A stretch of 64,000 nt of DNA from Candidatus Parcubacteria bacterium (GTDB lineage Bacteria; Patescibacteriota; Minisyncoccia; UBA6257; JAGOQP01), in contig AP024682.1 of NCBI GenBank assembly GCA_025999395.1, forward strand, positions 301,638-365,637, given 5' to 3'. Shown here piece after piece: positions 3,127 through 63,216 of the stretch. Positions within the stretch are counted from its first letter, which is position 1. Every line of letters begins with the position of its first letter. The notes below the pieces were generated by a model, which worked only from the letters and a program-made list of their open reading frames with translations, had not been told where the DNA came from and did not search any database. A program made the translations under genes and the position numbers.

Positions 3127-3227
3127 GGATAAAGCAATAATGAAAATTATAATAGTTGGATATTCAAAATTTAGAAAAAATTACCGTTTTTAAATTTAAA
3201 AGGTTTTGTTAATTTTAATTAATCTTT

Positions 3228-4031: not shown

Positions 4032-4039
4032 AAAATATT

Positions 4040-5965: not shown

Positions 5966-6039
5966 AACTTTTCTTTATTAATTTTACCAGCTTTAAAAAT
6001 AAAAACAAAGCAAGGTGTGGATAAACAAGAGAGAAGGAA

Positions 6040-6723
6040 TCAGAAGGATTTTAAAAGAATTACCTTGCCAATTATTTCTTTTTTGTCTATTAATCCAAAG
6101 CGAGTGGAATCCAGAGAACCTTCAATTTTATTTCCTAAAATTAAGTAGGTATTTTCTGGAATCACTGGATAATCTCTCAGATAAAGCTTTAAGATGGCTG
6201 ATCTTTCTTTAGGAATAAAATAAGGGATTTGTTGAGCGTTAGTTAAAATTTGATCGTTAACAAGGATTTGATAACCATCCTCTTCTTCTTTTAGTTGCCA
6301 TTTATCGTTGGGAAGAGCTTTTACAATTTTAATTAACCTTTGACCGTTAGGGTGCTGGTAAATAATTATATCGTTTCTTTGGACTGGGTGACATTGGTAA
6401 TAATTTTCAAGAACTTTTATTTTTTCTCCGCTTTCTACAATTCCTGACATTGAATCTCCTATTACTTCTTCTAAAAGAGTTTTAATTTGGCAATCTTTTT
6501 CTAAGGGGGCCTGATTTTTCTCTTCTGAATTGAAATTTTCTTTGGCGACTGAGGCAGATTTATTTTCGACTAATTTATCGGAGTTATCTTGGAAAGAAAT
6601 TTTATTGTCAGAAAAGGCGTCATCTTTTTGGCTAACTTTTAGAGAGAGGAAAAATAAGCCAAATAAGGCAATTAAAATCAAGGTCAAACTTCCTACTAAA
6701 ATCAGAATTGTCTTCAATTTCAT
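6040..6723 (-). CDS. lepB: Signal peptidase I
   Basis: Has an N-terminal TM segment. Shows the S26 boxes: GDSM (Ser box), IKIVKALPNDK (Lys box) and GNKIEGSLDSTRFG (E box, GDNxxxSxDSR-like). Confidence 0.8.
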   Translation of the reverse strand: MKLKTILILVGSLTLILIALFGLFFLSLKVSQKDDAFSDNKISFQDNSDKLVENKSASVAKENFNSEEKNQAPLEKDCQIKTLLEEVIGDSMSGIVESGEKIKVLENYYQCHPVQRNDIIIYQHPNGQRLIKIVKALPNDKWQLKEEEDGYQILVNDQILTNAQQIPYFIPKERSAILKLYLRDYPVIPENTYLILGNKIEGSLDSTRFGLIDKKEIIGKVILLKSF

Positions 6724-6803
6724 ATTTATTTTATAAGCTTGCGATAAGCGATTATTGTCATTATACTCTGAAAAAGAAGAGAGAGGTAGTTTTTATTTAT
6801 CTT

Positions 6804-51986: not shown

Positions 51987-52087
51987 CTTTTTGATTTTTT
52001 TTTACAATAGAGAGCGGCTGTTTTGGAGAGTTCTCATGGTGGTCTAGCCCCGAAGGGGACCCTTCGGGTTGCGCGTTATTGTGAAGA

Positions 52088-52361
52088 ATGAGGTATTTTC
52101 GTTTATTTTCTTAAAAGTGAAAGTACTGGAAGATTTTACATAGGATGTACGCGGGATATTGATAAAAGATTGAGATATCATAATAGTGGTAAAAATAAAT
52201 CAACCAAACCATACAGGCCTTGGAAGTTAATCTACTTTGAGAGTTATGATAGTATAAAAGATGCTTATAGGAGAGAGTGGTATTTAAAACATTCTAAGGG
52301 GTATTTAGAAAAAAAGGTTTATAATAAAAAAATATGGAGGAGGGTTCGCATAGTGGTCTAG
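52088..52361 (+). CDS. GIY-YIG nuclease family protein (YhbQ-like), interrupted by a +1 frameshift in a T-run
   Basis: ATG at 52088 reads MRYF, then shifts at tattttcg. The continuation reads VYFLKSESTGRFYIGCTRDIDKRLRYHNSGK...RPWKLIYFESY, the classic GIY...YIG...R...N pattern. The 3' end runs into the tRNA-Ser 5' end. Confidence 0.55.
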
Positions 52362-52428
52362 TGCGCGGCTCTGGAGAAGCCGTAGGTCCGAAAGGGCCTC
52401 GTGGGTTCGAATCCCACCCCCTCCGCCA
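52336..52428 (+). tRNA. tRNA-Ser (anticodon GGA), class II with a long variable arm
   Basis: Anticodon stem CGGCT/AGCCG with loop CTGGAGA. Variable arm TAGGTCCGAAAGGGCCTCG. T-arm GTGGG-TTCGAAT-CCCAC. 3' GCCA is encoded. There is one A-C mismatch in the acceptor stem as drawn, so the exact 5' end is uncertain. Confidence 0.7.
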
Positions 52429-52441
52429 GTTGGAAAAAGAA

Positions 52442-52540
52442 GGTTGCTGGCTCGCCCTCTGCGAGGGCTCGCCAGCCGATTTTAGGCGCAAAATTGAATT
52501 TTTTGTCTTTCAAAATAAAGTTCGAGCCGACATTTTTTAG
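52442..52540 (+). repeat. Island-flanking direct repeat, copy 1 (att-like)
   Basis: About 75% identical to 63051-63160 in the same orientation (shared ttgctggct, ctctgcgaggg, and aattttttgtcttt...ttcga.c.gacattttt). An inverted partial copy lies at 53887-53957. Confidence 0.6.
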
Positions 52541-53834
52541 AAATTCCCGGATTTGATAATTGTCGCCCTGCGACAATAGAATTTTGGCTTGTTTCTGCCT
52601 CAAAAATCATTTCTTTCATCGGTTCGAGCCAATTATTTCCCGATTGTTCAAAATCTCTGATTTTCTGCTCAATATCCAGTTTTTCGTTGAGCAGTTTTTG
52701 TTTCTTGGCTTGGTATTCTCCAAGTGTCAAAGCTCCTGCCGGCGATATAGAGGTCTAACAGTTTTTCAATTTTCTGCTCAACTCTCTGCCTTTTGCTCGC
52801 TGGAGATTTTGAACAATAATTTCGCTTTCTCTTTTCAGCTTGCTCTTTTTCTTTGTCTAACTCCAAAATCATATTTTCCGCCCACTCATCAGGCAAAGAA
52901 ACCTTTTTGAATAAAATCTCTTCATCTGCTCAACAAGGTTTTCTTCCCTTAAATACCTTTCATCGCATTTTTGCTTTTTCTTGGTGCACCGGTAGTAGTT
53001 ATGCCCTTTTTGCTTTTCAGCGGTTATCATACAGCCGCAATTTCCGCAACGCATAAAGCCGGAAAAAGCAAATTCATGCTTTCTTTTTCTCTTTTTCTTG
53101 CCTCGGTTATTCATTACTTGCTGGACAGAATCAAAAAGTTTCTTGGAAATAATTGGCTCGTGAGCTTCCCTGATAAACTTCTCCGTTAAACTTAAAAACT
53201 CCGTAGTAGAAATGATTTTTGAGCATTCGCTGGACACAGGAAACAGAGAGCGGTTTGTTGCGGTAGCTTGTTATTCCGCTGTCCGCCAAAAACTGCTTTA
53301 TGGCTTTTAGGGTATAGTCGCCGGTGGCGTAAAGCTCAAACGCTTTTCTGATAAACGGTGCTTTGCCTTTGTCCAAATCTATTTCTTTTGTCATGGTGAT
53401 TATTAAGATAGCCAAGCGGAGCAAAGCCTGGCCAAATTCCTTTTCGCAGTTTTTAGCGGTGTCCTCGCTTGATGTTTTCTGAAAGGTTGTCAACATAATA
53501 CTTGCTTTGCCCAAAAGCGATGGAGAGCATAAATTTTCCCTGCGGCGTGTTTTCAAACCTGAAAGTCGGAAATTTCAAATCTAAAATTTTTCCTGTGTCC
53601 AGCAGATAAATGATTTTCCCGCCGTCAACAGAATTTCTTGCTAACCTGTCCGGGTGCCAAGCCAAAATTCCGCTGGCTTCGCCGAGCGCAAATCCGGTCT
53701 AACATTTCTCCGAAAACTTTTCGGCCAGGTTCCTTGGCGGCAAATTCTTTTAGCTCAGCAAGCTGAGCTTCAATAGACAAAACCTGCTTTTCTTCTGAAT
53801 CTGTTGATTTTCTGCAATAGATAAAGTATTTCAT
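52482..53834 (-). pseudogene. Large serine recombinase, decayed copy (multiple frameshifts)
   Basis: Five overlapping minus-strand ORF fragments align in order to the intact recombinase at 55945..57537. Matching segments include MKYFIYCRKSTDSEEKQ, AWHPDRLARNSVDGG...FGQSKYY..NLSENIKRGHR, HEPII.KKLFD.VQ and MRCGNCGC...GHNYYRCTK. Confidence 0.8.
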
Positions 53835-53858
53835 AATCCCTCTTTGGTTAAAAATTTA

Positions 53859-54152
53859 GAAAAGCCCGCTTCTGGCGTCCCGCTTTGCGGAACAAAGACA
53901 AAAAATTCAATTTTGCGCCTAAAATCGGCTGGCGAGCCCTCGCAGAGGGCGAGCCAGCAACCTCTTTTTCTGACTGGCGATGTGTATTGGAAAAAATCCG
54001 AACTGATTTTATTAACGGGCTCGGCTGGCGGAAGGCAAAGACCGACCCCACTTTCCGCCCGCCTCGCCCTGAACCGGAAGCGAAAAGGCAAACCGCCAAA
54101 GAACCTGAAAAAATGTCGGCTCGAACTTTATTTTAGTCAGAAGCGGGCTTTT
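53859..54152. mobile_element. MITE-like non-coding element (~294 bp) with 16-bp terminal inverted repeats
   Basis: TIRs gaaaagcccgcttctg (53859-74) and cagaagcgggcttttc (54137-52). The interior shares blocks with the repeats at 52442-52540 (inverted) and 55900-56040. Confidence 0.5.
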
Positions 54153-54231
54153 CTTTACTGAATTGAAATTTTTTGATATCATATATTTGAAATCACCCTT
54201 TATGGTTTAATGATATCAAAGTTTTGAAACT

Positions 54232-54429
54232 ATGGCAACAATAGGCGAAAATATCAAAAAATACCGCAACAAACTTGGCTTAACGCAGGACGATTTGGTG
54301 AGAAAGTCTGGTGTAAAACACACTACCCTTACCAAAATAGAGGGCGATTTTGTTAAAAAACCGAGCGTTCAAATTATGGCCAAAATTGCCAAAGCATTAG
54401 GCGTTTCGGTTGAGGATTTATTGAAATAA
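54232..54429 (+). CDS. XRE-family helix-turn-helix transcriptional regulator
   Basis: 65 aa. IKKYRNKLGLTQDDLVRKSGVKHTTLTKIE is a Cro/CI-type HTH. Confidence 0.8.
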   Translation: MATIGENIKKYRNKLGLTQDDLVRKSGVKHTTLTKIEGDFVKKPSVQIMAKIAKALGVSVEDLLK

Positions 54430-54430
54430 T

Positions 54431-54793
54431 ATGGAACTGATTTTTCATGAAATTTTTAGAGCACTTGGCTACCTGTTAATCGCAGGTGTTGTGTTGTTTG
54501 CTTGGAAGACAGCACGCGACAACTCAAAAGACGGAAAACTTAAAGAAGTTTTATGGAAAGGACTTTTGTGGTGTGCTGGGATTGCTTTATTCGCGAGCTT
54601 CACTTTAGGAAATCCCTCTTGTATAGAACAATCTGATCCAGTATATGGCGGTTGCGAACAATATGCTGATGATGGTTTTGAGCCAACCACCGAACAAAGA
54701 GTCGCAAATTTTGCTTACTTCATGACGCTGTTATATATTCCTGTCGTTTTTGGTGCTTTCAGTGGTAATAAATTAACAACGAACAAAGAATAA
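54431..54793 (+). CDS. Hypothetical membrane protein (island cargo)
   Basis: 120 aa, three predicted TM helices and Cys residues. The start is 2 nt after the HTH gene stop. Confidence 0.35.
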   Translation: MELIFHEIFRALGYLLIAGVVLFAWKTARDNSKDGKLKEVLWKGLLWCAGIALFASFTLGNPSCIEQSDPVYGGCEQYADDGFEPTTEQRVANFAYFMTLLYIPVVFGAFSGNKLTTNKE

Positions 54794-54794
54794 T

Positions 54795-55505
54795 ATGGAA
54801 ATATTTCGTTTTATATTTTCAATTATTTTCGCCCCAATCAGATGGTTGGCAAATTTATTTACTCAACGAAAGGACAACATTTTAGAGTGGCATTTTAATT
54901 ATGGCCCCTCGTTTATAAAAATTGAAACAAAATACAAAGAGCAATTTTTACCCGATGACTTATTGATCGCTGGTTATATCCTATTTTTAGCCCGATATTT
55001 TTTCATCTGCGATGATAGACAAATAGAGGTTGTTAGAAAGTTTCTTTTAAACGAAATCGAAAAATCAAAATCTAATGAGATTACACTAAAGTTGTATGAG
55101 GCCGTTTTTCAAACCTTAAATCAAATGGAAAAAGATGCAACGCTTGGCTTATTCAAAATCTATAATAGATTTTTACCAATGCCACCCCTAACTTTTTCAG
55201 AAGATGAAGAACCGCGTCATTCGTTGGCAAAATATAGTTTCTTAGTTTTTGAGCGTTCCGGCGGCAATGGCTTTGGTCATATCTTCTATATGTCTGCCGG
55301 ACCCGATATTATTTTGCTTCCGCTTACGGTCGGAATTCTATACGAATATGTAGTGAACAAATTGCGAAACAAGGATAAAAAAGAAAAACTAGATAATTCA
55401 ATCATTGATTTATTAAAAGGCCATTCAGCAGTAGATTGTCGCTCTATAGCAGGTCAAACAGAATTGCCAAATGAGGTTATTATTAAAAATAATTTAAACT
55501 ACTAA
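54795..55505 (+). CDS. Hypothetical protein (island cargo)
   Basis: 236 aa with no recognisable motif. Sits in a tightly packed operon. Confidence 0.35.
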   Translation: MEIFRFIFSIIFAPIRWLANLFTQRKDNILEWHFNYGPSFIKIETKYKEQFLPDDLLIAGYILFLARYFFICDDRQIEVVRKFLLNEIEKSKSNEITLKLYEAVFQTLNQMEKDATLGLFKIYNRFLPMPPLTFSEDEEPRHSLAKYSFLVFERSGGNGFGHIFYMSAGPDIILLPLTVGILYEYVVNKLRNKDKKEKLDNSIIDLLKGHSAVDCRSIAGQTELPNEVIIKNNLNY

Positions 55506-55506
55506 T

Positions 55507-55854
55507 ATGGGAATTGTAATTTTTATTATCGGTTTAGTTTTCGGGCTTTTCGCATTTAGCCAAATTATTTATCCGCTTTTCTCGGCTTGGCCTAGAGCGA
55601 AAAAATTAGAGCGCGAAGGAAAATTGAAAAGACCAATTCCGATTTCTACATTTCTAATTGCACCAATTATTTGGGGCGTCCTTATGTGGGCTTCTGTTTT
55701 GGTCATCGGAAAATTTTGGCCTGAAAACTTAAACACTTATTACATAAGTTTGGTGATAATTTTGTTTGTGGTAATTATTCAGATTCCAAAGCAAAACCGA
55801 GATTTAGAAGCGGATTTCAAAGATTCTTGGAAACAGTATTTGAAAGAAGAATAA
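55507..55854 (+). CDS. Hypothetical membrane protein (island cargo)
   Basis: 115 aa with three TM helices. The start is 2 nt after the upstream stop. Confidence 0.35.
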   Translation: MGIVIFIIGLVFGLFAFSQIIYPLFSAWPRAKKLEREGKLKRPIPISTFLIAPIIWGVLMWASVLVIGKFWPENLNTYYISLVIILFVVIIQIPKQNRDLEADFKDSWKQYLKEE

Positions 55855-55944
55855 AAGAATTTGTCGCCAAAGAACAAAATCTGTAAGATTTTGTTAGTGG
55901 GCTACGCCCGCGAAAAACTTGAAATCGTCCTTTTCGCTTCCGCT

Positions 55945-57537
55945 TCAGGGCGAGGCGGGCGGAAGGGGGGTTCGGGGGGAATTCCGCCCGCCGAGCCAAT
56001 CGGTCGCGAAATCGGTTCGGATTTTTTCAAATGCACACCGCCAATATTCAATTTCAGAGTTTTTGAAGGTTCTTGCCTCGCCCTCGCTTCGCTCGGGCTC
56101 GGCAAAAGCAACGATTTTATACGGATTTTTGAAATCAAAAAACAATTTCTGCCCGCTCAAAAGAAAGTTCGAACCAATCTTTTTTAGAAAATCCCGGCTT
56201 TGCTCAGGATTTTCTTGCAAAGTGACAATTTCGGCTTGTTTTACGGAGTTTATGAATTTGGCGGCGAGTTCGAACCGATTATTGCCTTTTTGCTCAAAAG
56301 CCTTCAGTTTGTCTTTCAAAAGTTGTTTTTGATTGACGAGTTTGTTTTTGGCCTCTCTGTATTCATCCAAAGACAAAGCGTTTTCAAGATAAGCGTTCAT
56401 CAGCTTGTCTAACTTTTCGTCAATTGCTTTTATTTCGTTTTCTATCTTTTGAGCAAAAAAGCACGATGATTGGGCTTTTTGTTCTTTTTCTTTTTCAAGT
56501 TCTTTTATCATCCAATCAGCCCAATCATCGGGCAAAGAAACTTTTTGAATCTCCTTTTTGATTTGCTCGGCGATTATTTCTTCGCGAACATATCTTTGAG
56601 AACAAGGGATTTTCCTTTTGGTGCAACGCAAATAATTGTGTCCTTTCTGTGTCTCGGTGGTGATAAAGCAACCGCATTTTCCGCAACGGAACATTCCTCT
56701 GTAAATGTATGGCTTTAATTCTCTTGTCTTTGGTTTGCTTTTTTGTCTCATCACTTCCTGAACTTGGTCAAAAAGTTTCTTTGCGATAATCGGTTCGTGC
56801 TTTCCTTCGTAATATTCGCCGTTGTATCTCATCACTCCGTAGTAAAAAGGATTTTGAAGAAGGTATTGATAATTTGAAACAGAAAGTAATTTACCTTTTC
56901 TTCCTCTCAATCCCAGATTGTTGACAATCTTTCGGATCTCTTTAAGAGCGTATTTGCCGGTGGCGTAAAGCTTAAAGGCTTTTTTGATAAGAGGAGCTTT
57001 TTCTTTGTCTATATAGATTTGTTTTGTCTTGGGGTCGTTGAAGTAGCCAAGAGGCGCCATTTGAGGCCATAGACCTTGTTTTAGTTTTTGGCGATGTCCC
57101 CGCTTTATATTTTCCGAAAGATTGTCAATATAGTATTTTGACTGCCCAAAAGCGATAGACAACATAAACTTTCCTTGAGGCGTGTTTTCAAACCAAAAAG
57201 TCGGGAATTTTAGCTCTTTGATTACTCCGGTATCAACAAGGTAAATTATTTGTCCGCCGTCAACAGAATTACGAGCGAGACGGTCAGGATGCCAAGCCAA
57301 AATCCCTTCTGCTTCGCCCGCTTCAATTCTCTTTAGCATTTCTGCAAAAACAGGTCTTCCCGGCTTCTTGGCAGTTTGTTTTTCAACGAGAACATCAACG
57401 ATTTCCAGATTTTCTTTTTTCGCTAATTCTTTGAGTTCCGCTATTTGGTCCTGAATACTCCTTACTTGCCGATCTTCTGAATCGGTTGATTTTCGGGCGT
57501 AGATGAAAAATTTTCTTGTTTTGTTGTCTTTTTTCAT
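55945..57537 (-). CDS. Large serine recombinase (resolvase domain, recombinase domain, zinc ribbon and coiled coil)
   Basis: The probable start is MKKDNKTRKFFIYARKSTDSEDRQ, with the catalytic Ser in the YARKST motif. Has WHPDRLARN and the zinc ribbon CGKCGC...GHNYLRCTKRKIPC. The ORF track extends the N-terminus to 57609 and the C-terminus into the flanking repeat. The true C-terminus probably lies before about 56190. Confidence 0.8.
   Translation of the reverse strand: MKKDNKTRKFFIYARKSTDSEDRQVRSIQDQIAELKELAKKENLEIVDVLVEKQTAKKPGRPVFAEMLKRIEAGEAEGILAWHPDRLARNSVDGGQIIYLVDTGVIKELKFPTFWFENTPQGKFMLSIAFGQSKYYIDNLSENIKRGHRQKLKQGLWPQMAPLGYFNDPKTKQIYIDKEKAPLIKKAFKLYATGKYALKEIRKIVNNLGLRGRKGKLLSVSNYQYLLQNPFYYGVMRYNGEYYEGKHEPIIAKKLFDQVQEVMRQKSKPKTRELKPYIYRGMFRCGKCGCFITTETQKGHNYLRCTKRKIPCSQRYVREEIIAEQIKKEIQKVSLPDDWADWMIKELEKEKEQKAQSSCFFAQKIENEIKAIDEKLDKLMNAYLENALSLDEYREAKNKLVNQKQLLKDKLKAFEQKGNNRFELAAKFINSVKQAEIVTLQENPEQSRDFLKKIGSNFLLSGQKLFFDFKNPYKIVAFAEPERSEGEARTFKNSEIEYWRCAFEKIRTDFATDWLGGRNSPRTPLPPASP
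56032..56190. repeat. Imperfect terminal inverted repeat, left, of the recombinase element
   Basis: Matches the reverse complement of 57596-57808 over about 125 bp (caccgccaatattcaatttcagagtttttgaaggttcttgcctcgccctcgcttcgctcgggctcggca...). Both inner ends read accaatcttttttag. Confidence 0.6.
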
Positions 57538-57595
57538 AATCGCTTTTGGACAGTTAGTCCCGCTTCGCGGGACAAATTGCCGCTTTGCGTTCCGC

Positions 57596-57808
57596 CAAAG
57601 GCGGAACAAAAAAGATTGGTTAACCCCGCCCTTTTAACAGGAAGGGCGGGGTGTTCGCCTTCGGCGAACCGAACCTCCAAATTCTGGAGCAAAAATTGTT
57701 TTTTGATTTCAAAAATCCCTATAAAATCGTGGTTTCTGCCGAGCCCGAGCGAAGCGAGGGCGAGGCAAGAACCTTCAAAAACTCTGAAATTGAATATTGG
57801 CGGTGTCT
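57596..57808. repeat. Imperfect terminal inverted repeat, right, of the recombinase element
   Basis: See the partner at 56032-56190. It carries an extra insertion of about 50 bp with two GC-rich hairpins. Confidence 0.6.
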
Positions 57809-58090
57809 TTTGGACAAAATTCGAACCTATTTTGAACAAAATCCTGATGCCGACTTCTGATTGTCGCCCTGCGGGCGACAATCCCGCCCCGCGTTTCCGC
57901 ACGGCGTCCGCTTCGTTTCCGCCGAACAAAACAGAAAAATTTTCTAAACATTTATTTAATCGCGCCCCCGACAAAATTTTTTCTATTAAGGAAAAGAAAA
58001 TTTTTCTGTTTTGACATTCTACTAACGCAGAATTGCGGAAACGCTTCCCACCCCCAGTCCCGCTTCGCGGGACAGCAGGCGGGCTATGGT
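57799..58090. repeat. Perfect 292-bp inverted repeat, left copy, flanking the RM/HEPN cassette
   Basis: The reverse complement is identical to 62758-63049 as read by eye over the full length. It contains the hairpins gattgtcgccctgcgggcgacaatc and gtcccgcttcgcgggac. Confidence 0.85.
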
Positions 58091-58161
58091 ATTTTTTATA
58101 TTCGCCCTTGCCCCACCCGTACCGTGCGCGGGCGGTAGAGTAAAACTCCCTAAAAATAATC

Positions 58162-58195
58162 ATAACCTATTTTGGGATATTCTACAATAGGTTAT
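58162..58195 (+). promoter_or_regulatory. C-box-like operator upstream of the controller gene
   Basis: 10-bp inverted repeat ataacctatt / aataggttat with a 14-nt spacer. It ends 18 nt before the C gene ATG. Confidence 0.4.
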
Positions 58196-58212
58196 ACCAT
58201 AAAAATAAAGAT

Positions 58213-58434
58213 ATGCCAAAGTCAATTTATACAAAAGAGTATAAGAAGATCCTCGCACGGCTTAAAAAAGCCAGGCAGGATGCTGGCTTAAAACAGACAG
58301 AGGTCGCCAAAAAGTTAAATAGGCCTCAGTCTTATATTTCAAAAATAGAAAGAGGAGAAAGAAGAATTGATGTAGCAGAACTAAAAGAGTTAGCAAAGAT
58401 TTATAAAAAAGACATAAATTATTTTATTGAATAA
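58213..58434 (+). CDS. Controller (C) protein-like XRE HTH regulator of the RM system
   Basis: 73 aa with HTH LKQTEVAKKLNRPQSYISKIERGERR. Lies 17 nt upstream of the putative endonuclease gene, the classic C-R arrangement. Confidence 0.7.
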   Translation: MPKSIYTKEYKKILARLKKARQDAGLKQTEVAKKLNRPQSYISKIERGERRIDVAELKELAKIYKKDINYFIE

Positions 58435-58451
58435 AAATTAAATCACACAAT

Positions 58452-59426
58452 ATGGGTAAGTATGAAAGAGAACAAATCGAAGAGGCTGAGAAAATAATTG
58501 TTAAGATTATTAATTCTCAGAAGGTGTCCGATTTAGATAAACAAAATCGGTGGTTTAAACATGCGATCGCTATTGCTGAAAGAATTAAAAAGGATTTTCC
58601 CAATATTAAAAAAGCACAACATTTAGGTAATCGTTATGATAATACGGGAGATATATTATTAATTACCTCTGATAAAAGAGAAATTTTTATTGAAGTTAAA
58701 ATGAGCGACACAAGATTAGGTGTGGGGACTAAAGCAAATGTCAGTCAAGATGCGCTTACAGAAAATTATCTTTTTGTGGGCAAAGTTAAAAGTTGGAGTA
58801 AATTTCGCAAGGAGAAAAAACATAATGAGTGGGTTGATAGTTATTTAGACCTTTTTACTAGATATCCAAAAAAGATTTTAAATATCTCAAATTCCATAAT
58901 TAGAAGAGAGGAGAAAGCAAGGTATTTAAGAGGTTTAAAACAAAAAGGAAGTAGAAAAGCCAAAGAAATTCTCGATAAAATTCACGAGAGAGATAAAAAA
59001 GAAAAAATAGAATATTTGGTTTATCTTAGCAAACAACCGCAAAGAGAAGAAATGATTAAAAGATTTTTTATTTTAATTACATTAGGTATCCATAAAAAAG
59101 AAGAATTACAGGCTCTAATAAAAAAAGATAATTTTTTTCAAGAAATTCAAGATCTTTTGGTGTATTATGGGAATTCTTACAATGATAAAATTATTGTAAG
59201 GCAAGAAAACGCAGGTGAGAAAATTAAAAAAGTTCTCGAAGAGTTTTCAGGTTTTAAAATTATCTTTCCTTCCGGAACTACCCACTGTAAATTAGTAGGA
59301 ATAAAGGGAAAGAAAAATATACCTTTATTACAAATAGTTTTACATTGGAAAAATATTGCTCAAGGAATTAAAACTCCGTGCCTTAATATTTTTGATCTAA
59401 CTCCAAAATTTATTAATCCTTATTAA
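58452..59426 (+). CDS. Putative type II restriction endonuclease (PD-(D/E)xK)
   Basis: GDILLITSDKREIFIEVK gives a D...E-x-K catalytic core. It is convergent with the MTase gene, overlapping it by 4 bp. Confidence 0.5.
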   Translation: MGKYEREQIEEAEKIIVKIINSQKVSDLDKQNRWFKHAIAIAERIKKDFPNIKKAQHLGNRYDNTGDILLITSDKREIFIEVKMSDTRLGVGTKANVSQDALTENYLFVGKVKSWSKFRKEKKHNEWVDSYLDLFTRYPKKILNISNSIIRREEKARYLRGLKQKGSRKAKEILDKIHERDKKEKIEYLVYLSKQPQREEMIKRFFILITLGIHKKEELQALIKKDNFFQEIQDLLVYYGNSYNDKIIVRQENAGEKIKKVLEEFSGFKIIFPSGTTHCKLVGIKGKKNIPLLQIVLHWKNIAQGIKTPCLNIFDLTPKFINPY

Positions 59427-61066
59427 TTTGGGTCAATTGGGAATAATTTCTCTAGCTCAGTTTTAGAGATCTGCGTATTTCCTGTAATACTTCTTACCAC
59501 TTTCAATTTCTCTTCCGAGGAAAGCTGTTTAGCAATATCCTTAAGAGTTAAGTTTGTTTTTGGTAAATTTTTTCCGAAATCCATCTTAAGTTGTTCCTGT
59601 TTAGAGGGAGGAAAAATAACATTGACATGGTTTTCAGCAATAAACTTCATTCCCGAAGGGATAACAGCTGCTTTTAGTGTCGCTGTTTTCACTGAACCTG
59701 TGATTCTATTTACAACAATAGCAGGGCCAATATCAAAATCTTTTCTTTTTACATATTGAGGTTTTGTTTTATCTATAATTGGAAATTTTAGTCCTGTTGG
59801 AGTTATATTATGGGCCCATATTAAAGGGATTCCTTCTTCCGGGTTGTTTGTCAATAAATGCTTATTTTGGTTCCAGACTAATCTGCCAGTTTTTACCTCA
59901 TATCCGAGATCATATAGTGTTAATTTATTTTCGAAGGCTTTTTCTAGAAATTTTGGATTTTCGCTAAATATTAAAATTCCATTTTTTTTGAATAAATAGT
60001 TTCCCTTGTTTCTACCTTTTTTAAGGATAATTAGCATTGTTGATTGTAGCGCCCCGTGGAATATTTTAGGGTCATCTAGAATATGTAAATATTCAATATT
60101 GGAATTCTCTACAATAAATTTTCTTAGTTTTAAAAAGTATGCTCCGTTATTCATAGAAGGGGGAACAACATAAGCTAAATATCCTCCTTCTTTTAACCAT
60201 TTTAATCCCTGACAAATGAACAGGCTAAATATGTTTAATCTACCGTTTATAATACTCCCGAATTTTTTTCTTATATTTTCTGGAGGAGTAAATTCAAAAT
60301 AAGGCGGATTACCAATTACAAAGTCATATTTACCATAATCTTCGTTTAAAAGAGCATCTAGCTGTTTGAGTTTTGCTTCAGGAACTACTTCTTTAGCGAT
60401 CTTTACTAGTTTTTTGTCTATATCCCATCCATAAAGTTGAGGGTTTTTGAAATATTTTTTTGCTGTGATTAAAAATTCTCCTGTTCCACAAGCAGGATCT
60501 AGTATTTTTGGGTTTTTAATGTTGGTTGGTAATTTACTAAGGAGTGCTTCTCTTATTGATCTTGGGGTAAAATATTGCCCTAAAGATTTTCTATATTCTA
60601 TATCTGTTTCTTCCATATACCTAATTGTAGCCTCGGTGAATTCCTCTTTTTCTTTTATTTTTTCTTTTAACTCGCCAAAACTTCTAATTACACTTATTAC
60701 TTTTCCTTGAATTATTAATTCTTTTGTAAAAATCGGTTTTATTTTTGGATTTGCTGGTTGAAGCCGGAAACCATTTTTTTCTCTATAAATCTTTTTGAGT
60801 GTAACTTCATTATCATTTATTAGAGCCACTACCGTTTCTCCATTTTCAGCAATTGGTTGTTTCCTAATTATTACGATATCTCCATCGTAAATTCCTTCGT
60901 CAATCATGCTATCTCCTTGAACCCTTAAAGCGTAATGTTCGCCTGATTTAGATAATTGTGATTTGGGAACCTCAATCATTTCAGGATCTTCTATTGCTTC
61001 AATTGGTTGACCAGCAGCAATAGTGCCAAGTAGTGGAATTTCTACTGTCTCTTTCTTTTCTCCCAC
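59423..61066 (-). CDS. Fusion protein: LexA-like S24 autopeptidase domain plus N6-adenine DNA methyltransferase (gamma-class, TaqI/Eco57I-like)
   Basis: The N-terminal 130 aa read IPLLGTIAAGQP (the Ala-Gly cleavage site), GDSM (Ser nucleophile) and VTLKK (Lys). The C-terminal MTase has QYFTPRSI, ILDPACGTGEFL (motif I) and GNPPYF (motif IV). Confidence 0.8.
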   Translation of the reverse strand: MGEKKETVEIPLLGTIAAGQPIEAIEDPEMIEVPKSQLSKSGEHYALRVQGDSMIDEGIYDGDIVIIRKQPIAENGETVVALINDNEVTLKKIYREKNGFRLQPANPKIKPIFTKELIIQGKVISVIRSFGELKEKIKEKEEFTEATIRYMEETDIEYRKSLGQYFTPRSIREALLSKLPTNIKNPKILDPACGTGEFLITAKKYFKNPQLYGWDIDKKLVKIAKEVVPEAKLKQLDALLNEDYGKYDFVIGNPPYFEFTPPENIRKKFGSIINGRLNIFSLFICQGLKWLKEGGYLAYVVPPSMNNGAYFLKLRKFIVENSNIEYLHILDDPKIFHGALQSTMLIILKKGRNKGNYLFKKNGILIFSENPKFLEKAFENKLTLYDLGYEVKTGRLVWNQNKHLLTNNPEEGIPLIWAHNITPTGLKFPIIDKTKPQYVKRKDFDIGPAIVVNRITGSVKTATLKAAVIPSGMKFIAENHVNVIFPPSKQEQLKMDFGKNLPKTNLTLKDIAKQLSSEEKLKVVRSITGNTQISKTELEKLFPIDPN

Positions 61067-61070
61067 TATT

Positions 61071-61265
61071 TCAATAGACCTGGGTTCGTTTTTTTTCTCT
61101 TTTGATATATCCTTCTTTTTCGAGTCTTAAGAGATGATGATGAATAGTGGATACTGAAGAAAGTCGAAAATGTTTTTTAATTTCTTCTATAGAGGGAGCG
61201 TAACCTCTTTTTTCTTTGAAGGACTTTATAAAATCTAAGACTTGTTTTTGCCGTTTTGTAATCAT
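61071..61265 (-). CDS. LexA-type winged-helix DNA-binding domain, upstream segment of the same LexA-MTase gene, separated by an A8-run frameshift
   Basis: ITKRQKQVLDFIKSFKEKRGYAPSIEEIKKHFRLSSVSTIHHHLLRLEKEGYIKR is the canonical LexA N-domain. Removing one A from the A8 run at about 61085-61092 fuses it in frame with IEIVGEKKETVEIPLLG. Confidence 0.75.
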   Translation of the reverse strand: MITKRQKQVLDFIKSFKEKRGYAPSIEEIKKHFRLSSVSTIHHHLLRLEKEGYIKREKKRTQVY

Positions 61266-61269
61266 AGTA

Positions 61270-61330
61270 TTGACTTTCTATTTATTTTCGATTATACTTT
61301 AAATATAAACAAGACATCTAAAAAAGTCAA
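61270..61330. promoter_or_regulatory. Divergent promoters with a near-palindromic candidate operator
   Basis: Plus strand: TTGACT, 17 nt, TATACT, leading toward the 61357 gene. Minus strand: TTGACT (61330-25), 17 nt, TATATT, leading toward the LexA-MTase gene. A 15-bp near-palindrome TATAcTTTAAAtATA overlaps both -10 elements. Confidence 0.4.
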
Positions 61331-61356
61331 TCAGTCTAATTAATTTATACCCAACC

Positions 61357-61656
61357 ATGGCTACATCAAAACACGATGAAATTGCAAAAAAACTTGCCAA
61401 AAAATTCGGCACAGAATATAAATCTAATGAGGGCATAGATATTGTACTGCCTGATCGCGTTATAGAAGTTGAGACTAAAAAAGACGGAATACGCCAAGGT
61501 ATAAATCAAGTGATAAGATCGTCTAAAGCCAGATATATAGCTGTTAACAAAAAGAATGTACAAAATGCTCTTGACGCCACACAAGGCACCGGAATTGGAG
61601 TAATGAGTGAAACGGGCCATATTATAAAACGCGCCAGCAGAAGCAGGAAGAAGTAA
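61357..61656 (+). CDS. Small PD-(D/E)xK-like (YraN/UPF0102-like) putative endonuclease
   Basis: 99 aa. GIDIVLPDRVIEVETKK fits D-x(n)-E-V-E-x-K. Confidence 0.35.
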   Translation: MATSKHDEIAKKLAKKFGTEYKSNEGIDIVLPDRVIEVETKKDGIRQGINQVIRSSKARYIAVNKKNVQNALDATQGTGIGVMSETGHIIKRASRSRKK

Positions 61657-61681
61657 AAATAAAAGATTTCTAGAAAGTTAT

Positions 61682-62356
61682 ATGGAGGAGATACTTACAA
61701 AAATTAAACAACTAATAGAAGGATTTAGGGATAAATATACAATCAGATTAGAAGAAATTGTTGTTAATGCTGATAAGTTAAAGAAAGCCTGCAGAAGAAT
61801 TGAGCGCTCTTGGAGCGGTTCGTTTGCTGGTTGGCATGGCCGTATGTACTTTCGTGATTTTCAGATTCCATCAATACATGAAAGATTTAGTGGAGAATGG
61901 GGAGGAATACATGGCATACCTGAAGGATGGGAAGAAAAACAGCCTGAAGAAGTACGAGAAAAAATTGAAGAATTAGTTGGTGATGAATTTTCAGCTGATG
62001 ATTTTGAAAAAGAATTAGGGAAGTTAAAAAAAGAGGCAATCCAGCTTAAAGACGAAATAGTAATAACTCTTTCGGTCTTTAATTTTGACACCCACGCTGA
62101 AAAAGAAAAAGAATTATTTTCTCAAATAGAAAATTTTGAATTTGGCAAAACAAAGGGTGAATTTATAAACGATGGGTTGCCAAAAACAATGATGTCAAGA
62201 GATACGGAAGCCTTGCGGCAAGGAATTTGTATCGCTTCGTGGTTGTATTATGAAGGAGTAGCACTTGAAGCTAAGAGTTTTTATGAGGCGATAAATAATT
62301 TTTTCGGATTGGTTAATAAATTAGTAAGGCTACTTGAACAAAAAATCAAAACTTAA
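61682..62356 (+). CDS. Hypothetical protein, likely partner of the downstream HEPN protein
   Basis: 224 aa with no recognisable motif. It overlaps the next ORF by 23 nt, which suggests translational coupling. Confidence 0.35.
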   Translation: MEEILTKIKQLIEGFRDKYTIRLEEIVVNADKLKKACRRIERSWSGSFAGWHGRMYFRDFQIPSIHERFSGEWGGIHGIPEGWEEKQPEEVREKIEELVGDEFSADDFEKELGKLKKEAIQLKDEIVITLSVFNFDTHAEKEKELFSQIENFEFGKTKGEFINDGLPKTMMSRDTEALRQGICIASWLYYEGVALEAKSFYEAINNFFGLVNKLVRLLEQKIKT

Positions 62357-62753
62357 TACTAAAACAATCCATACCATAGATAATCAGTTAAATAATTTGC
62401 ACCAAGAAATATATAATAAATGTTTTGACTTGTATCAAAAGGGGGCATACGCGGAGGCAGTTGAAAAGAGTTTTAAGGTTGTACGAGATAGATTAAGAAA
62501 ATTGACAGGGTATGAGACAGGTTCAGAGGCATTTGGTAAGGGAAAATTACATATTAAGGGTGCTGCTGCTCAAAATGTTGACCAAGATTTTAATGACGCG
62601 GTTAAGTTCTTAACCATGGCAATTGATCGATTCCGCAATGAAAAAAGCCATACCTCAGATGCTAAAATAGATGACCCTGTCCGTGCTTATGAATATTTAA
62701 GACTAAGTAGTCTTGCGATGAATTTACTTGAAGATAGTGAGATTTTGTCGTAG
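62334..62753 (+). CDS. HEPN-like domain protein (TIGR02391-like), putative RNase toxin/abortive-infection component
   Basis: 139 aa. Has RNEKSH (the R-x4-H HEPN motif) near the C-terminus within a predicted helical bundle. Confidence 0.5.
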   Translation: MNKKSKLNTKTIHTIDNQLNNLHQEIYNKCFDLYQKGAYAEAVEKSFKVVRDRLRKLTGYETGSEAFGKGKLHIKGAAAQNVDQDFNDAVKFLTMAIDRFRNEKSHTSDAKIDDPVRAYEYLRLSSLAMNLLEDSEILS

Positions 62754-62757
62754 GCTT

Positions 62758-63049
62758 TACCATAGCCCGCCTGCTGTCCCGCGAAGCGGGACTGGGGGTG
62801 GGAAGCGTTTCCGCAATTCTGCGTTAGTAGAATGTCAAAACAGAAAAATTTTCTTTTCCTTAATAGAAAAAATTTTGTCGGGGGCGCGATTAAATAAATG
62901 TTTAGAAAATTTTTCTGTTTTGTTCGGCGGAAACGAAGCGGACGCCGTGCGGAAACGCGGGGCGGGATTGTCGCCCGCAGGGCGACAATCAGAAGTCGGC
63001 ATCAGGATTTTGTTCAAAATAGGTTCGAATTTTGTCCAAAAGACACCGC
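62758..63049. repeat. Perfect 292-bp inverted repeat, right copy
   Basis: Reverse complement of 57799-58090. Confidence 0.85.
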
Positions 63050-63050
63050 T

Positions 63051-63160
63051 AGTTGCTGGCTTACTCTCTGCGAGGGCGCAAAGAGCGCTCCAGCCAACTT
63101 TGAAGCAGAAATTTAATTTTTTGTCTTTTAAAGTGAAATTCGAACTGACATTTTTAAAAG
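63051..63160 (+). repeat. Island-flanking direct repeat, copy 3 (att-like, diverged)
   Basis: About 75% identical to 52442-52540. It is preceded by aggttcgaat, which resembles a tRNA T-loop remnant. Confidence 0.5.
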
Positions 63161-63216
63161 AGCAGAAATTTTTTAAGAGTAGTGGAAAAGTCAAATCATT
63201 AATTTTAAACAAGCTA

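What the first reader, a model, noticed from the sequence alone, without database searches (positions are those of the whole stretch)
57799..63049. A 4.7-kb RM plus HEPN defence cassette bounded by perfect 292-bp inverted repeats next to a large serine recombinase
By eye, 57799-58090 and 62758-63049 are exact reverse complements over about 292 bp. Such perfection implies recent duplication or ongoing homogenisation by recombination between the copies. The enclosed 4.7 kb carries a C-protein/REase pair, the LexA-MTase fusion, a small PD-(D/E)xK protein and a HEPN-like pair. An intact large serine recombinase gene sits immediately outside the left repeat. The arrangement is compatible with an invertible defence module (phase variation), or with a composite transposable unit whose long TIRs are mobilised in trans. 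The repeats also harbour GC-rich hairpins that could serve as recombinase sites.
Basis: seen in the sequence. Interest (0 to 1): 0.8.

Follow-up and report, generated by a model that had tools for sequence, protein, structure and literature searches.

The report
Recombinase island with internal inverted attP
The perfect 292-bp inverted repeat is real, but it does not mark a flipping defence switch or a transposon: it is the duplicated end-region of a serine-recombinase gene that marks a widespread, apparently undescribed type of tRNA-inserted mobile island that carries restriction and other defence genes between ultra-small (CPR) bacteria.

Summary
Observation confirmed: 57800-58091 and 62758-63049 are exact reverse complements (292 nt), one base off the stated left arm. 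It is one link in a chain of alternating inverted repeats that follows tRNA-Ser(GGA) at 52339-52428.

In about 80 related loci, a very large family of large serine recombinases (LSRs; more than 7,900 close homologues, mostly Patescibacteria) shows the same layout. The order is tRNA 3' end (attL), rec gene, an internal inverted attP-like site (J), an HTH gene followed by variable cargo, then attR.

The 292-bp arms are the two copies of the attP "P arm", one in J and one in attR. This arm encodes the conserved native C-terminal tail, stop codon and hairpin of the LSR, so attP lies inside the rec ORF. Insertion at a tRNA replaces the tail with tRNA-antisense codons. P-type half-sites carry the T-loop-like motif 5 nt further out than the tRNA, as in canonical LSR attP versus attB.

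The RM/HEPN cassette is cargo. Its orientation is invariant in 14/14 loci, whereas the rec module occurs in both orientations. Phase variation of the cassette and a composite transposon are not supported. The role of J is inferred, not shown. I found no published description.

The parts
52339..52428 (+). tRNA-Ser(GGA). Its last bases CCGCCA (52423-52428) are the integration core and form the B-type half-site of attL for the whole island.
   Evidence: ARAGORN, Rfam RF00005. In about 50 of 80 related loci the rec 3' end abuts a convergent tRNA in the same way.
52429..52555 (+). P' arm of element E1. It is the 3' coding end of the decayed recombinase and one arm of an 87-nt, 97% inverted repeat with 53894-53979.
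52480..53834 (-). LSR pseudogene of element E1, broken into four ORF fragments; 67% nucleotide identity to the intact gene.
   Evidence: ORF list, blastn 52840-53738 vs 56479-57372
53894..54134 (-). J1, the internal inverted attP-like site of E1. It comprises the P' arm copy (53894-53974), the core TGGCGA (53975-53980) and the P arm (to about 54088-54134).
54232..55854 (+). Cargo of E1: an HTH_3 regulator (54232-54429) next to J1, followed by three small predicted membrane or unknown proteins.
55929..56152 (+). Junction S3. It joins the P arm of E1 (55929-56037), the core CCGCCA (56038-56043) and the P' arm of E2 (56044-56152). It serves as attR of E1 and attL of E2, and it is also the 3' end of the intact rec ORF.
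55945..57537 (-). Intact large serine recombinase of element E2 (530 aa from the ATG at 57537). The ORF crosses the core at W499-R500 and currently ends in a tail encoded by E1's P arm.
   Evidence: Pfam Resolvase/Recombinase/Zn_ribbon_recom; more than 7,900 homologues; tails
57540..57685 (-). Leader between J and the rec start, carrying four GC-rich hairpins. Function unknown.
   Evidence: strand folding gives -69.4 kcal/mol, z = -5.75
57689..58091 (-). J2, the internal inverted attP-like site of E2. It comprises the P' arm copy (57689-57797), the core (rc of CCGCCA, 57798-57803) and the P arm. Positions 57800-58091 are the LEFT ARM of the reported repeat. The + strand carries a spare copy of the rec 3' end (...EYWRCLLDKIRTYFEQNPDADF*, stop at 57858-57860), followed by a hairpin at 57859-57883.
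58213..62753 (+). Cargo of E2. HTH regulator (58213-58434), putative REase (58452-59426), S24-peptidase/N6-adenine MTase (59423-61066, -), LexA DNA-binding ORF (61071-61265, -), 99-aa ORF (61357-61656), 224-aa ORF (61682-62356) and a HEPN-type Hypoth_Ymh protein (62334-62753).
62758..63051 (+). attR of E2: the P arm (the RIGHT ARM of the reported repeat, 62758-63049), ending in the core CCGCTA (63046-63051).
63052..63160 (+). Remnant of an older element: a P' arm plus about 100 nt of a recombinase 3' end. It is a direct repeat of 52443-52537 at 74% identity.
   Evidence: D8; the ORF 62835-63212(-) carries the ...KNVSSNFTLKDKKLNF... motif

Best explanation
The 292-bp arms are two copies of the 'P arm' of a large-serine-recombinase attachment site. 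The window holds a 10.7-kb island (52429-63160) inserted at the last bases of tRNA-Ser(GGA). It consists of two tandem elements plus a remnant of a third. Element E2 (56044-63045) reads: attL, rec gene (minus strand, 3' end toward the tRNA side), J, HTH and RM/HEPN cargo, then attR. J is a complete attP-like site (P arm, core, P' arm) that is inverted relative to attL and attR. The repeat flanking the cargo is therefore J's P arm paired with attR's P arm. The 144-nt repeat flanking rec is attL's P' arm paired with J's P' arm. attP lies inside the rec ORF. The P' arm encodes the last conserved residues before the crossover, and the P arm encodes a conserved 13-20-aa tail, the stop codon and a hairpin. 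Insertion at a tRNA therefore replaces the native tail with codons read from the antisense of the tRNA, while J keeps a silent inverted spare copy of the complete rec 3' end. Shown: the site architecture, its recurrence across loci, the tail logic, the fixed cargo orientation, and the existence of both rec orientations. Inferred: (a) the free form is a circle with two inverted attP regions separating a rec segment and a cargo segment; (b) inversion of the rec segment between attL and J restores a full-length recombinase without excision, acting as a switch on the element's own enzyme; (c) the arms stay identical through gene conversion between the repeats or because the element arrived recently. 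The RM/HEPN cassette is passive cargo, not a phase-variable unit.
For: (1) The architecture recurs. In the 80 GTDB loci, 60 have the repeat flanking rec (IR-A, 55-159 nt, mostly 98-100%). Of these, 25 also have the abutting cargo repeat (IR-B, 88-349 nt, mostly 98-100%) enclosing 0.7-6.2 kb. Many other contigs break inside the P arm.
(2) Site alignment in 25 loci gives J = P arm-core-P' arm, A2 = tRNA 3' end-core-P' arm, and B1 = P arm-core-chromosomal flank. The core is the last 4-15 nt of the tRNA. In L009 the flank is the next tRNA gene. tRNA adjacency holds in about 50 of 80 loci.
(3) The GTTCNRA motif lies 23 nt from the arm start in J and 18 nt in the tRNA. The difference is exactly +5 in 19 of 24 loci. 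This matches the 5-bp shift of the zinc-ribbon-domain motif between attP and attB reported in PMC3783163.
(4) Reading rec through J's P arm gives a conserved tail (W-R-x-L-L-D-K-I-R-T-F-F-x-E-N-P-D-x-x-F-stop) in 27 loci. Actual tails in the tRNA-joined state are ...RRxxDSNPR... of variable length. The third codon position is the most variable. Of the 120 closest homologues, about 24 carry the native tail and about 76 a tRNA-coded tail (counted by eye, because the automatic tail classifier failed).
(5) Cargo orientation is fixed. The HTH gene lies 58-189 nt from J and points away from it in 12/12 loci, and also in E1 and L088.
(6) Both rec orientations exist. L089 reads tRNA-Ser(GGA)-core-P' arm-leader-rec, with the native tail. 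Its arms are only 90% identical, so this is not a repeat mis-join. L088 and L019 are also flipped.
(7) L093 shows rec 3' end-attP-distal cargo end, with the HTH side running into a P arm at the contig end. This is the junction expected in the free circle.
(8) Cargo in relatives is variable and often RM or other defence genes.
Against: No reads were available, so neither excision, a circle, nor inversion in this population is shown. The L093 junction could also come from a tandem array or a doubly flipped integrated form. Canonical LSRs recombine only attP with attB (PMC3783163), so LSR-catalysed attL x J inversion would be non-canonical; homologous recombination could produce the flipped forms instead. 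The conserved 'IRT' of the tail coincides with the presumed DNA-binding motif (ATCCGAAC), so part of the tail conservation may be DNA-level. The P' half-site shows no obvious dyad symmetry with the P half-site. E1, the element nearest the tRNA and by the insertion logic the newest, is the most decayed. This does not fit a simple newest-is-nearest order. No recombination directionality factor was identified.
Confidence: 0.72

Rival explanations
1. Invertible, phase-variable defence module. The LSR, or homologous recombination, flips the 4.7-kb RM/HEPN segment between the 292-bp arms and switches its expression.
For: Perfect long inverted repeats with a recombinase next door. Complete att-like sites sit in inverted orientation at both arm tips. 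The sister segment carrying rec does occur in both orientations in relatives. A k=31 assembly graph cannot fix the orientation.
Against: Cargo orientation relative to J is identical in 12/12 related loci, plus E1 and L088; a freely flipping segment or arbitrary assembly would give about 50:50. The cargo has its own regulator and promoter region just inside the arm, and both junction sequences are unchanged by inversion, so no obvious on/off consequence follows. J x attR is not a permitted LSR pairing (PMC3783163).
Confidence: 0.08
2. Composite or TIR-bounded transposable unit. The cassette with its 292-bp terminal inverted repeats is a non-autonomous element mobilised in trans by the LSR or another transposase.
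For: Long identical terminal repeats. Cargo differs between loci while the arms are homologous. Modules alternate rec / cargo / rec / cargo in the window.
Against: There is no target-site duplication: the flanks are ...AATATTG | and | TAGTTGC.... There is no DDE transposase. The two ends carry complete sites in inverted orientation, so conservative recombination between them inverts the segment rather than excising it. The left arm shares its 33-nt tip with the repeat that flanks rec. No solo cargo unit lacking an adjacent rec was seen.
Confidence: 0.05
3. J is simply a second functional attP of a circular element with two inverted attP regions. Either one can be used for insertion, and the inverted repeats have no further role. 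The isomers then reflect the choice of attP rather than inversion.
For: The integrated structure equals a two-attP circle opened at one site. Both rec orientations occur at tRNA-Ser(GGA).
Against: Insertion through J would flip both rec and cargo relative to the tRNA. In L088 only rec is flipped, and no locus has the HTH at the attR side. The strong bias toward the rec-truncating isomer is not explained.
Confidence: 0.12
4. Assembly artefact: an inverted duplication created by the assembler.
For: One related contig (L090) has a 2056-nt perfect inverted repeat at both contig ends that looks like a graph artefact.
Against: The repeat boundary is reproduced in an independent Logan graph. The same architecture appears in dozens of MAGs from different assemblers, including a long-read MAG (L011), a 634-kb contig (L013) and a complete genome (L039, IR-A only). 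The arms contain a conserved coding tail.
Confidence: 0.01

Closest known systems
Serine-integrase (LSR) integrative elements and prophages (phiC31, Bxb1, A118/LI, SPbeta type)
   Same: Resolvase + Recombinase + zinc-ribbon/coiled-coil enzyme. attL and attR are hybrid sites sharing a short core. P-type and B-type half-sites differ by a 5-bp shift of the outer motif.
   Different: The target is the extreme 3' end of many different tRNA genes. attP lies inside the integrase ORF. A complete inverted attP-like copy with long arms is kept inside the integrated element. Elements can be as small as rec plus one gene. No RDF is recognised.
SCC elements (CcrAB/CcrC) and tandem SCC arrays
   Same: The best NCBIfam hits are CcrB, XisF and CcrA, all far below cut-off. 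These are cargo-carrying islands without phage or conjugation genes, and they accrete in tandem at one chromosomal site.
   Different: The target is a tRNA 3' end, not rlmH. There is a single recombinase gene. The internal inverted att copy and the long perfect repeats are absent from SCC (from general knowledge).
Tycheposons of Prochlorococcus (bioRxiv 10.1101/2020.12.28.424599)
   Same: Small cargo-carrying integrative elements at tRNA genes that form islands with remnants. A minority use an LSR.
   Different: Tycheposons are defined by a lineage-specific tyrosine recombinase in most cases and by shared replication hallmark genes, and are marked by partial tRNA genes and tRNA snippets at their sites. 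Here there are no replication genes. The family is a different LSR lineage, and the architecture has inverted internal sites.
SSV1-type archaeal integrases whose gene is partitioned by integration (from general knowledge)
   Same: attP lies inside the integrase ORF, so insertion into a tRNA gene disrupts the gene.
   Different: SSV1 uses a tyrosine recombinase and splits the ORF in the middle. Here only the last 13-20 codons are exchanged, and a spare inverted copy of the 3' end is retained.
Invertible segments carrying their own serine invertase (Hin) or bounded by long repeats with crossover sites at the outer ends (P1 Cin C-segment), and the yeast 2-micron plasmid (two unique segments separated by 599-bp inverted repeats containing FRT) (from general knowledge)
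   Same: The recombinase gene lies between inverted sites. Crossover cores sit at the outer tips of long inverted repeats. The predicted free form has two unique segments separated by inverted repeats that contain the recombination site.
   Different: The enzyme is an LSR, not a small invertase or Flp. The sites are of att type, with distinct P and B halves. There is no enhancer/Fis system, no replication function, and no evidence that the cargo segment flips.

Membership tests
Large serine recombinase (serine integrase) | N-terminal resolvase catalytic domain, followed by a recombinase domain and a zinc-ribbon domain with a coiled-coil insert | tested here: met
   PF00239 at 4.5e-21, PF07508 at 2.1e-17, PF13408 at 5.8e-08. 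NCBIfam CcrB and XisF hits fall below cut-off, which indicates a distinct lineage.
LSR integrative element (attP x attB logic) | The element is bounded by hybrid sites that share a short core with the target | tested here: met
   The core is CCGCCA in the tRNA, S3 and J, and CCGCTA in attR. The same pattern holds in 25 related loci.
LSR integrative element (attP x attB logic) | P-type half-sites carry the outer (ZD) motif 5 bp further from the centre than B-type half-sites | tested here: met
   23 nt versus 18 nt; the difference is +5 in 19 of 24 loci. The rule is taken from PMC3783163.
LSR integrative element (attP x attB logic) | An empty target site and an excised circle are observed | tested here: inconclusive
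   In L009 the attR flank is the neighbouring tRNA-Arg, 8 nt after the core. L093 shows a circle-type junction, but the contig breaks inside the repeat. No empty site was found for this genome.
Phase-variable invertible segment (inverton / shufflon type) | Inverted repeats flank the segment, with a site-specific recombinase nearby | tested here: met
Phase-variable invertible segment (inverton / shufflon type) | Both orientations of the segment occur | tested here: not met
   The cargo has one orientation in 12/12 loci, plus E1 and L088. Only the rec segment is seen in both orientations. Population reads were not available.
Composite transposon / TIR element | Target-site duplication, and a transposase acting on the terminal repeats | tested here: not met
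   The flanks differ and show no direct repeat. There is no DDE gene in 52-64 kb. The arm tip is shared with the neighbouring repeat.
Type II restriction-modification system with controller protein | A methyltransferase with an N6-adenine catalytic domain | tested here: met
   PF02384 at 9.6e-19, PF07669 at 1.8e-18, PADLOC MTase_II at 5.5e-52
Type II restriction-modification system with controller protein | A recognisable restriction endonuclease | tested here: inconclusive
   The 324-aa ORF has no hit in Pfam, NCBIfam, PADLOC or PDB. The assignment rests on position only.
Type II restriction-modification system with controller protein | An HTH controller specific to the RM unit | tested here: inconclusive
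   There are HTH_3 and Control_protein hits. However, an HTH gene occupies the same position next to J in elements with non-RM cargo, for example L054 and L072. It may therefore be the element's own regulator.
HEPN-domain protein | Family profile match and an Rx4H motif | tested here: met
   PF09509 at 2.1e-14, TIGR02391 at 6.4e-21; RNEKSH is present in the sequence. The upstream 224-aa 'partner' has no hit, so a HEPN pair is not shown.
Tycheposon | A lineage-specific integrase plus shared replication hallmark genes | tested here: not met
   No primase, helicase or polymerase is present in either element.

The most novel reading that the evidence does not exclude
This is a widespread class of tRNA-targeting serine-recombinase elements in CPR and other bacteria. 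The recombinase gene spans its own attP and sits in a segment bounded by attL and an internal inverted attP. Insertion disables the enzyme by swapping its C-terminal tail. Inversion of the rec segment, possibly catalysed by the LSR itself on a non-canonical attL x attP pair, re-arms it. The element would thus carry a DNA-inversion switch on its own integrase, and rec and cargo modules could reassort at shared sites.
Probability: 0.3. Interest if true: 0.8.

Novelty: new variant of a known kind. Interest (0 to 1): 0.62.

Why it matters
CPR/Patescibacteria largely lack known plasmids and conjugative elements, and how they exchange defence genes is poorly understood. This LSR family is very abundant: more than 7,900 close homologues, often on about 2-kb contigs that break assemblies. 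It carries RM, Mrr, GmrSD, TIR and other cargo into tRNA genes, so it is a plausible major vehicle of their accessory genome.

Mechanistically, the family has three notable features: an attP inside the integrase ORF, an inverted spare copy, and a rec module found in both orientations. Together these would be a new way of controlling serine-integrase directionality or activity without a recognised RDF. They would also supply a set of natural LSRs whose attB is a tRNA 3' end, which is of interest for genome engineering.

Practically, the long perfect repeats explain recurrent contig breaks and possible orientation errors in CPR MAGs.

Tried and rejected
- Rfam scan of 51.9-64 kb found only the tRNA, so no known RNA lies in the arms.
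- Promoter and terminator consensus scans were uninformative, at or below the shuffle expectation.
- Exact-protein look-ups for the LSR and for flanking genes found only Logan contigs of run DRR290133, which break at the repeats. No alternative-orientation contig and no empty site for this genome could be obtained.
- The IMG/VR scan gave only four weak or partial hits. The elements are not catalogued as viruses, and no circular contig was found there.
- Literature searches found no description of this architecture.
- L090, with rec at both contig ends inside a 2056-nt perfect repeat, was set aside as a probable graph artefact.
- An IS-like model, with a single TIR unit that circularises, was rejected. 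The two ends of each unit carry complete sites in inverted orientation, so only pairs of units can be excised by conservative recombination.
- A palindromic central dinucleotide as an explanation for the inverted sites was rejected. The cores of the Gln-, Leu- and Asn-targeting members leave only non-palindromic candidates.
- An automatic regex classification of tails failed, so the counts were made by eye.
- The metagenome-contig scan was not used.

Full report
**1. Observation**

The repeat is real. Positions 57800-58091 and 62758-63049 are exact reverse complements over 292 nt and enclose 4666 nt. Nothing comparable exists elsewhere in the 64-kb window.

An independent Logan assembly of run DRR290133 contains the enclosed segment as a 4726-bp contig. 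That length is the unique part plus 30 nt at each end, so the k=31 graph branches exactly at the arm boundaries. The repeat therefore exists in reads. Such a graph cannot, however, tell the orientation of the enclosed segment.

The gene content is close to what was described:
- an HTH_3 regulator;
- a 324-aa ORF with no homologue anywhere (a REase by position only);
- a Peptidase_S24 + N6-adenine methyltransferase ORF, preceded by a separate LexA DNA-binding ORF in another frame;
- two ORFs without hits;
- a Hypoth_Ymh/TIGR02391 (HEPN-type, RNEKSH) protein.

The neighbouring gene at 55945-57537(-) is an intact large serine recombinase (LSR).

**2. The repeat is one link in a chain**

Directly downstream of tRNA-Ser(GGA) (52339-52428) there are five intergenic junctions:
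- S1, about 52424-52555
- S2, 53894-54134
- S3, 55929-56152
- S4, 57689-58091
- S5, 62758-63160

Neighbouring junctions are inverted relative to each other, and S1, S3 and S5 are direct repeats. The segments between them are, in order:
- a decayed LSR pseudogene;
- an HTH gene plus three small genes;
- the intact LSR;
- the RM/HEPN cassette.

All junctions share a core that ends in CCGCCA (CCGCTA in S5). This is the 3' end of the tRNA. To its left lies a degenerate T-arm-like stretch (GGTTCGAAT...). The reported 292-bp repeat (S4/S5) overlaps by 33 nt with the 144-nt repeat (S3/S4) that flanks the recombinase gene.

**3. The same architecture recurs in a very large LSR family**

The recombinase has more than 7,900 homologues at E <= 1e-20. 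The best 120 are 44-89% identical, mostly above 65%. They are mostly from Patescibacteria, and many sit on contigs of about 1.8-2.3 kb.

In 80 loci from GTDB species representatives, self-comparison shows two repeats:
- IR-A, 55-159 nt and mostly 98-100% identical. It pairs a stretch upstream of rec with the 3' end of the rec ORF. It was found in 60 loci.
- IR-B, 88-349 nt and mostly 98-100% identical. It abuts IR-A with a 1-15-nt overlap and encloses 0.7-6.2 kb of cargo. It was found in 25 loci.

Many further contigs end inside the P arm, as expected if the second copy broke the assembly. In about 50 of 80 loci the rec 3' end abuts or overlaps the 3' end of a convergent tRNA gene: Ser, Asn, Gln, Leu, Glu, His, Gly, Ala or Arg.

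**4. Nature of the three sites**

Aligning the three sites locus by locus gives a uniform picture.
- The site at the rec 3' end reads tRNA 3' end, core, P' arm. This is attL.
- The site at the far end of the cargo reads P arm, core, chromosomal flank. This is attR. In L009 the flank is the next tRNA gene, 8 nt after the core.
- The site between rec and cargo (J) reads P arm, core, P' arm. It is a complete attP-like site, inverted relative to attL and attR.

IR-A is therefore the pair of P' arms, and IR-B is the pair of P arms. The core is the last 4-15 nt of the tRNA.

The P arm carries a T-loop-like motif (GTTCGRAT) 23 nt from the arm boundary, whereas the tRNA has it at 18 nt. The difference is exactly 5 nt in 19 of 24 measurable loci. 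This is the relation described for serine-integrase sites, where the zinc-ribbon-domain motif in attB is shifted 5 bp toward the centre relative to attP (PMC3783163).

In the window, J is S4, attL of element E2 is S3, and attR is S5. The 292-bp arms are the P arms of J and attR.

**5. attP lies inside the recombinase ORF**

Homology among family members stops at residue about 499-500 (W-R, TGGCGG, the reverse complement of CCGCCA). Beyond that point the integrated genes run into the antisense of the tRNA and end in tails such as RRGRDSNPR... of variable length.

Reading the same ORF through the P arm of J gives a conserved tail and stop in 27 loci. Examples:
- WRYLLDKIRTFFDENPDFDF* (L005)
- WLRILDEIRTFFKENPDSEF* (L031)
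- ...RCLLDKIRTYFEQNPDADF* (window J, + strand, stop at 57858-57860)

The third codon position is the most variable (entropy 1.07 / 0.89 / 1.40 for positions 1, 2 and 3). The invariant I-R-T coincides with the presumed DNA motif, so part of the conservation may be at the DNA level.

In the window, a strong hairpin follows the stop codon directly (-18.9 kcal/mol, z = -5.7). The P arm is conserved over about 250 nt between elements with different cargo (WIN, L005, L007, L031).

The P arm is therefore the native 3' end of the rec gene (tail, stop and downstream structured region) as it exists when P' is joined to P. J is an inverted spare copy of that whole 3' end.

Of the 120 closest homologues, about 24 carry the native tail and about 76 a tRNA-coded tail; the rest are truncated (counted by eye).

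**6. Which part is found inverted**

The cargo is not found inverted. In 12 of 12 loci with a detectable HTH homologue, that gene lies 58-189 nt from the J side and points away from J. The same holds for the window's element E1 and for L088. Cargo genes run away from J in all 13 loci inspected.

The rec module is found in both orientations.
- L089 is a 37-kb contig whose LSR is 81% identical. It reads tRNA-Ser(GGA), CCGCCA, P' arm, leader, rec, with the native tail. Its two arms are only 90% identical, so a repeat-induced mis-join is unlikely.
- L088 (32 kb) has rec flipped and co-directional with the HTH and cargo, which keep their usual orientation.
- L019 is a third, low-coverage example.
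- L093 shows the junction rec 3' end, attP with a 385-nt P arm, distal end of the cargo. The HTH side runs into a P arm at the contig end. This is what an excised circle would contain, but a tandem array is not excluded.

**7. Model**

Shown:
- an island inserted at the last bases of tRNA-Ser(GGA), made of element E1 (decayed rec, HTH and membrane-protein cargo), element E2 (intact rec, RM/HEPN cargo) and a 110-nt remnant of an older rec 3' end (63052-63160);
- the site types and their recurrence across loci;
- the tail exchange on insertion;
- the fixed cargo orientation and the variable rec orientation.

Inferred:
- The free form is a circle in which a rec segment and a cargo segment are separated by two inverted attP regions.
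- Insertion through the attP in the rec 3' end gives the common isomer, with a tail-less enzyme.
- Inversion of the rec segment between attL and J restores a full-length gene.
- The arms stay identical through gene conversion or recent arrival.

Whether the inversion is catalysed by the LSR is open. The attL x attP pairing would be non-canonical (PMC3783163), and RecA-dependent recombination is the alternative. The absence of flipped cargo, despite its longer repeats, argues weakly for a site-specific or selected process.

E2's rec currently ends in a native-type tail supplied by E1's P arm. E1's rec, joined to the tRNA, is a pseudogene. This fits the idea that the tail matters, but it is a single case.

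**8. What the finding is not**

It is not a phase-variable defence cassette on present evidence.

It is not a composite or TIR transposon. There is no target duplication and no transposase. The end sites are inverted complete att sites, so recombination between them can only invert the segment.

The GC hairpins are not the recombination sites. The core is at the outer tips of the arms.

It is not an assembly artefact. The architecture is seen in many assemblers, including a long-read MAG (L011), a 634-kb contig (L013) and a complete genome (L039, IR-A only).

**9. Cargo**

In relatives, the cargo next to the HTH is varied and often defence-related:
- D12 and N4/N6 methyltransferases;
- Mrr;
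- GmrSD;
- an NgoFVII-like REase;
- HinfI and TaqI REases;
- ThsB-TIR;
- DUF6119.

Non-defence cargo also occurs: an aminotransferase/radical-SAM cluster, a class I Trp/Tyr tRNA synthetase homologue, and membrane proteins.

The HTH occupies the same position whatever the cargo. The 'C protein' of the window's cassette may therefore be the element's own regulator.

**10. Comparison and novelty**

The enzyme and site logic are those of serine integrases. The lifestyle resembles SCC elements and tycheposons: small cargo islands, tandem accretion, tRNA targets. Partition of the integrase gene by insertion recalls SSV1-type elements. A recombinase gene between inverted sites recalls Hin, and two unique segments separated by repeats that hold the site recall the 2-micron plasmid. 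These last three comparisons are from general knowledge.

I found no description of an LSR element with attP inside the ORF plus an internal inverted attP copy. I rate it a new variant of a known kind, with interest 0.62. The architecture it exposed is abundant, regular and mechanistically unexplained.

Noticed in passing
window 61064-61110 (minus strand): The LexA-type repressor is split. The DNA-binding ORF (61071-61265) ends in TGA, and the S24-peptidase/MTase ORF starts at a GTG at 61066 in another frame, just downstream of an A8 run (…agagaaaaaaaacgaa…). This could be a frameshift mutation, a slippage-prone tract or a sequencing error. The Logan contig has the same two gene calls.
   Followed up: partly
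window 59423-61265; L062 4537-6081; L093 4084-5616: Fusions of a full LexA (DNA-binding + S24 autopeptidase) to DNA methyltransferases of different classes recur in the cargo of these elements. The classes are N6-adenine Eco57I-like here, a GFPCQ-motif (apparently C5-type, by eye) enzyme in L062 and N6_N4 in L093. This suggests damage- or RecA-responsive control of RM systems in CPR bacteria.
   Followed up: partly
window 57540-57685 (minus strand): The 146-nt leader between J and the rec start codon folds into four strong GC-rich hairpins (-69.4 kcal/mol, z = -5.75) in an AT-rich genome, and no sigma-70-like promoter was found there. The hairpin GTCCCGC-GAAG-GCGGGAC also occurs at 58057-58073 / 62776-62792, with a variant at 53879-53895.
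   Followed up: partly
L053, L055, L056, L061, L070, L072, L076, L077, L080, L083 (coordinates): In a more distant subfamily (about 50-55% identity) three further short perfect inverted repeats recur. One, about 30 nt just inside the attR P arm, equals the reverse complement of rec codons about 34-43. One, about 28 nt left of J's P arm, equals the reverse complement of the rec sequence just upstream of the IR-A arm. One, about 25-35 nt, brackets the whole J region, with its right arm ending at the rec start codon. All are unexplained.
   Followed up: no
window 52100-52345 (+): By eye, an ORF with a GIY-YIG-like sequence (…GRFYIGCTRDIDKRLRYHNSGKNKSTKPYRPWKLIYFESY…) runs into the 5' end of tRNA-Ser and lacks an obvious canonical start codon. 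The Logan chromosome contig breaks at about 52099, just upstream, which suggests this stretch is repeated or variable.
   Followed up: no
window 3199-3669 vs 4011-4532: Several direct-repeat families (83-98% identity, spacing 812-863 nt) indicate a tandem duplication of a unit of about 0.8 kb (families D3-D5, D7, D9).
   Followed up: no
L090 1-2056 / 5256-7311: This is a 7.3-kb JGI contig with the same 524-aa LSR gene at both ends inside a 2056-nt perfect inverted repeat, around an HTH-MTase-ThsB_TIR cargo. It is probably a graph artefact of taking the same branch out of both P arms. It is also a warning that these elements can produce chimeric MAG contigs.
   Followed up: partly
protein P0044 (865 aa): This is a fused ORF consisting of a complete, more distant LSR followed by the C-terminal about 390 residues of a second LSR of this family. 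It suggests one element inserted into, or recombined with, another recombinase gene.
   Followed up: no
L084, L085 (IMG/VR contigs): Two viral contigs end in only the N-terminal 116 residues (70% identity) of a related LSR, and the alignment stops although the contig continues for 10 kb. This may be a truncated rec next to phage DNA.
   Followed up: no
window 52000-58000: The island's rec and att regions are richer in G+C (0.40-0.43) than the surrounding chromosome (about 0.30-0.38). This is consistent with foreign origin or with constraint on the GC-rich hairpins.
   Followed up: no
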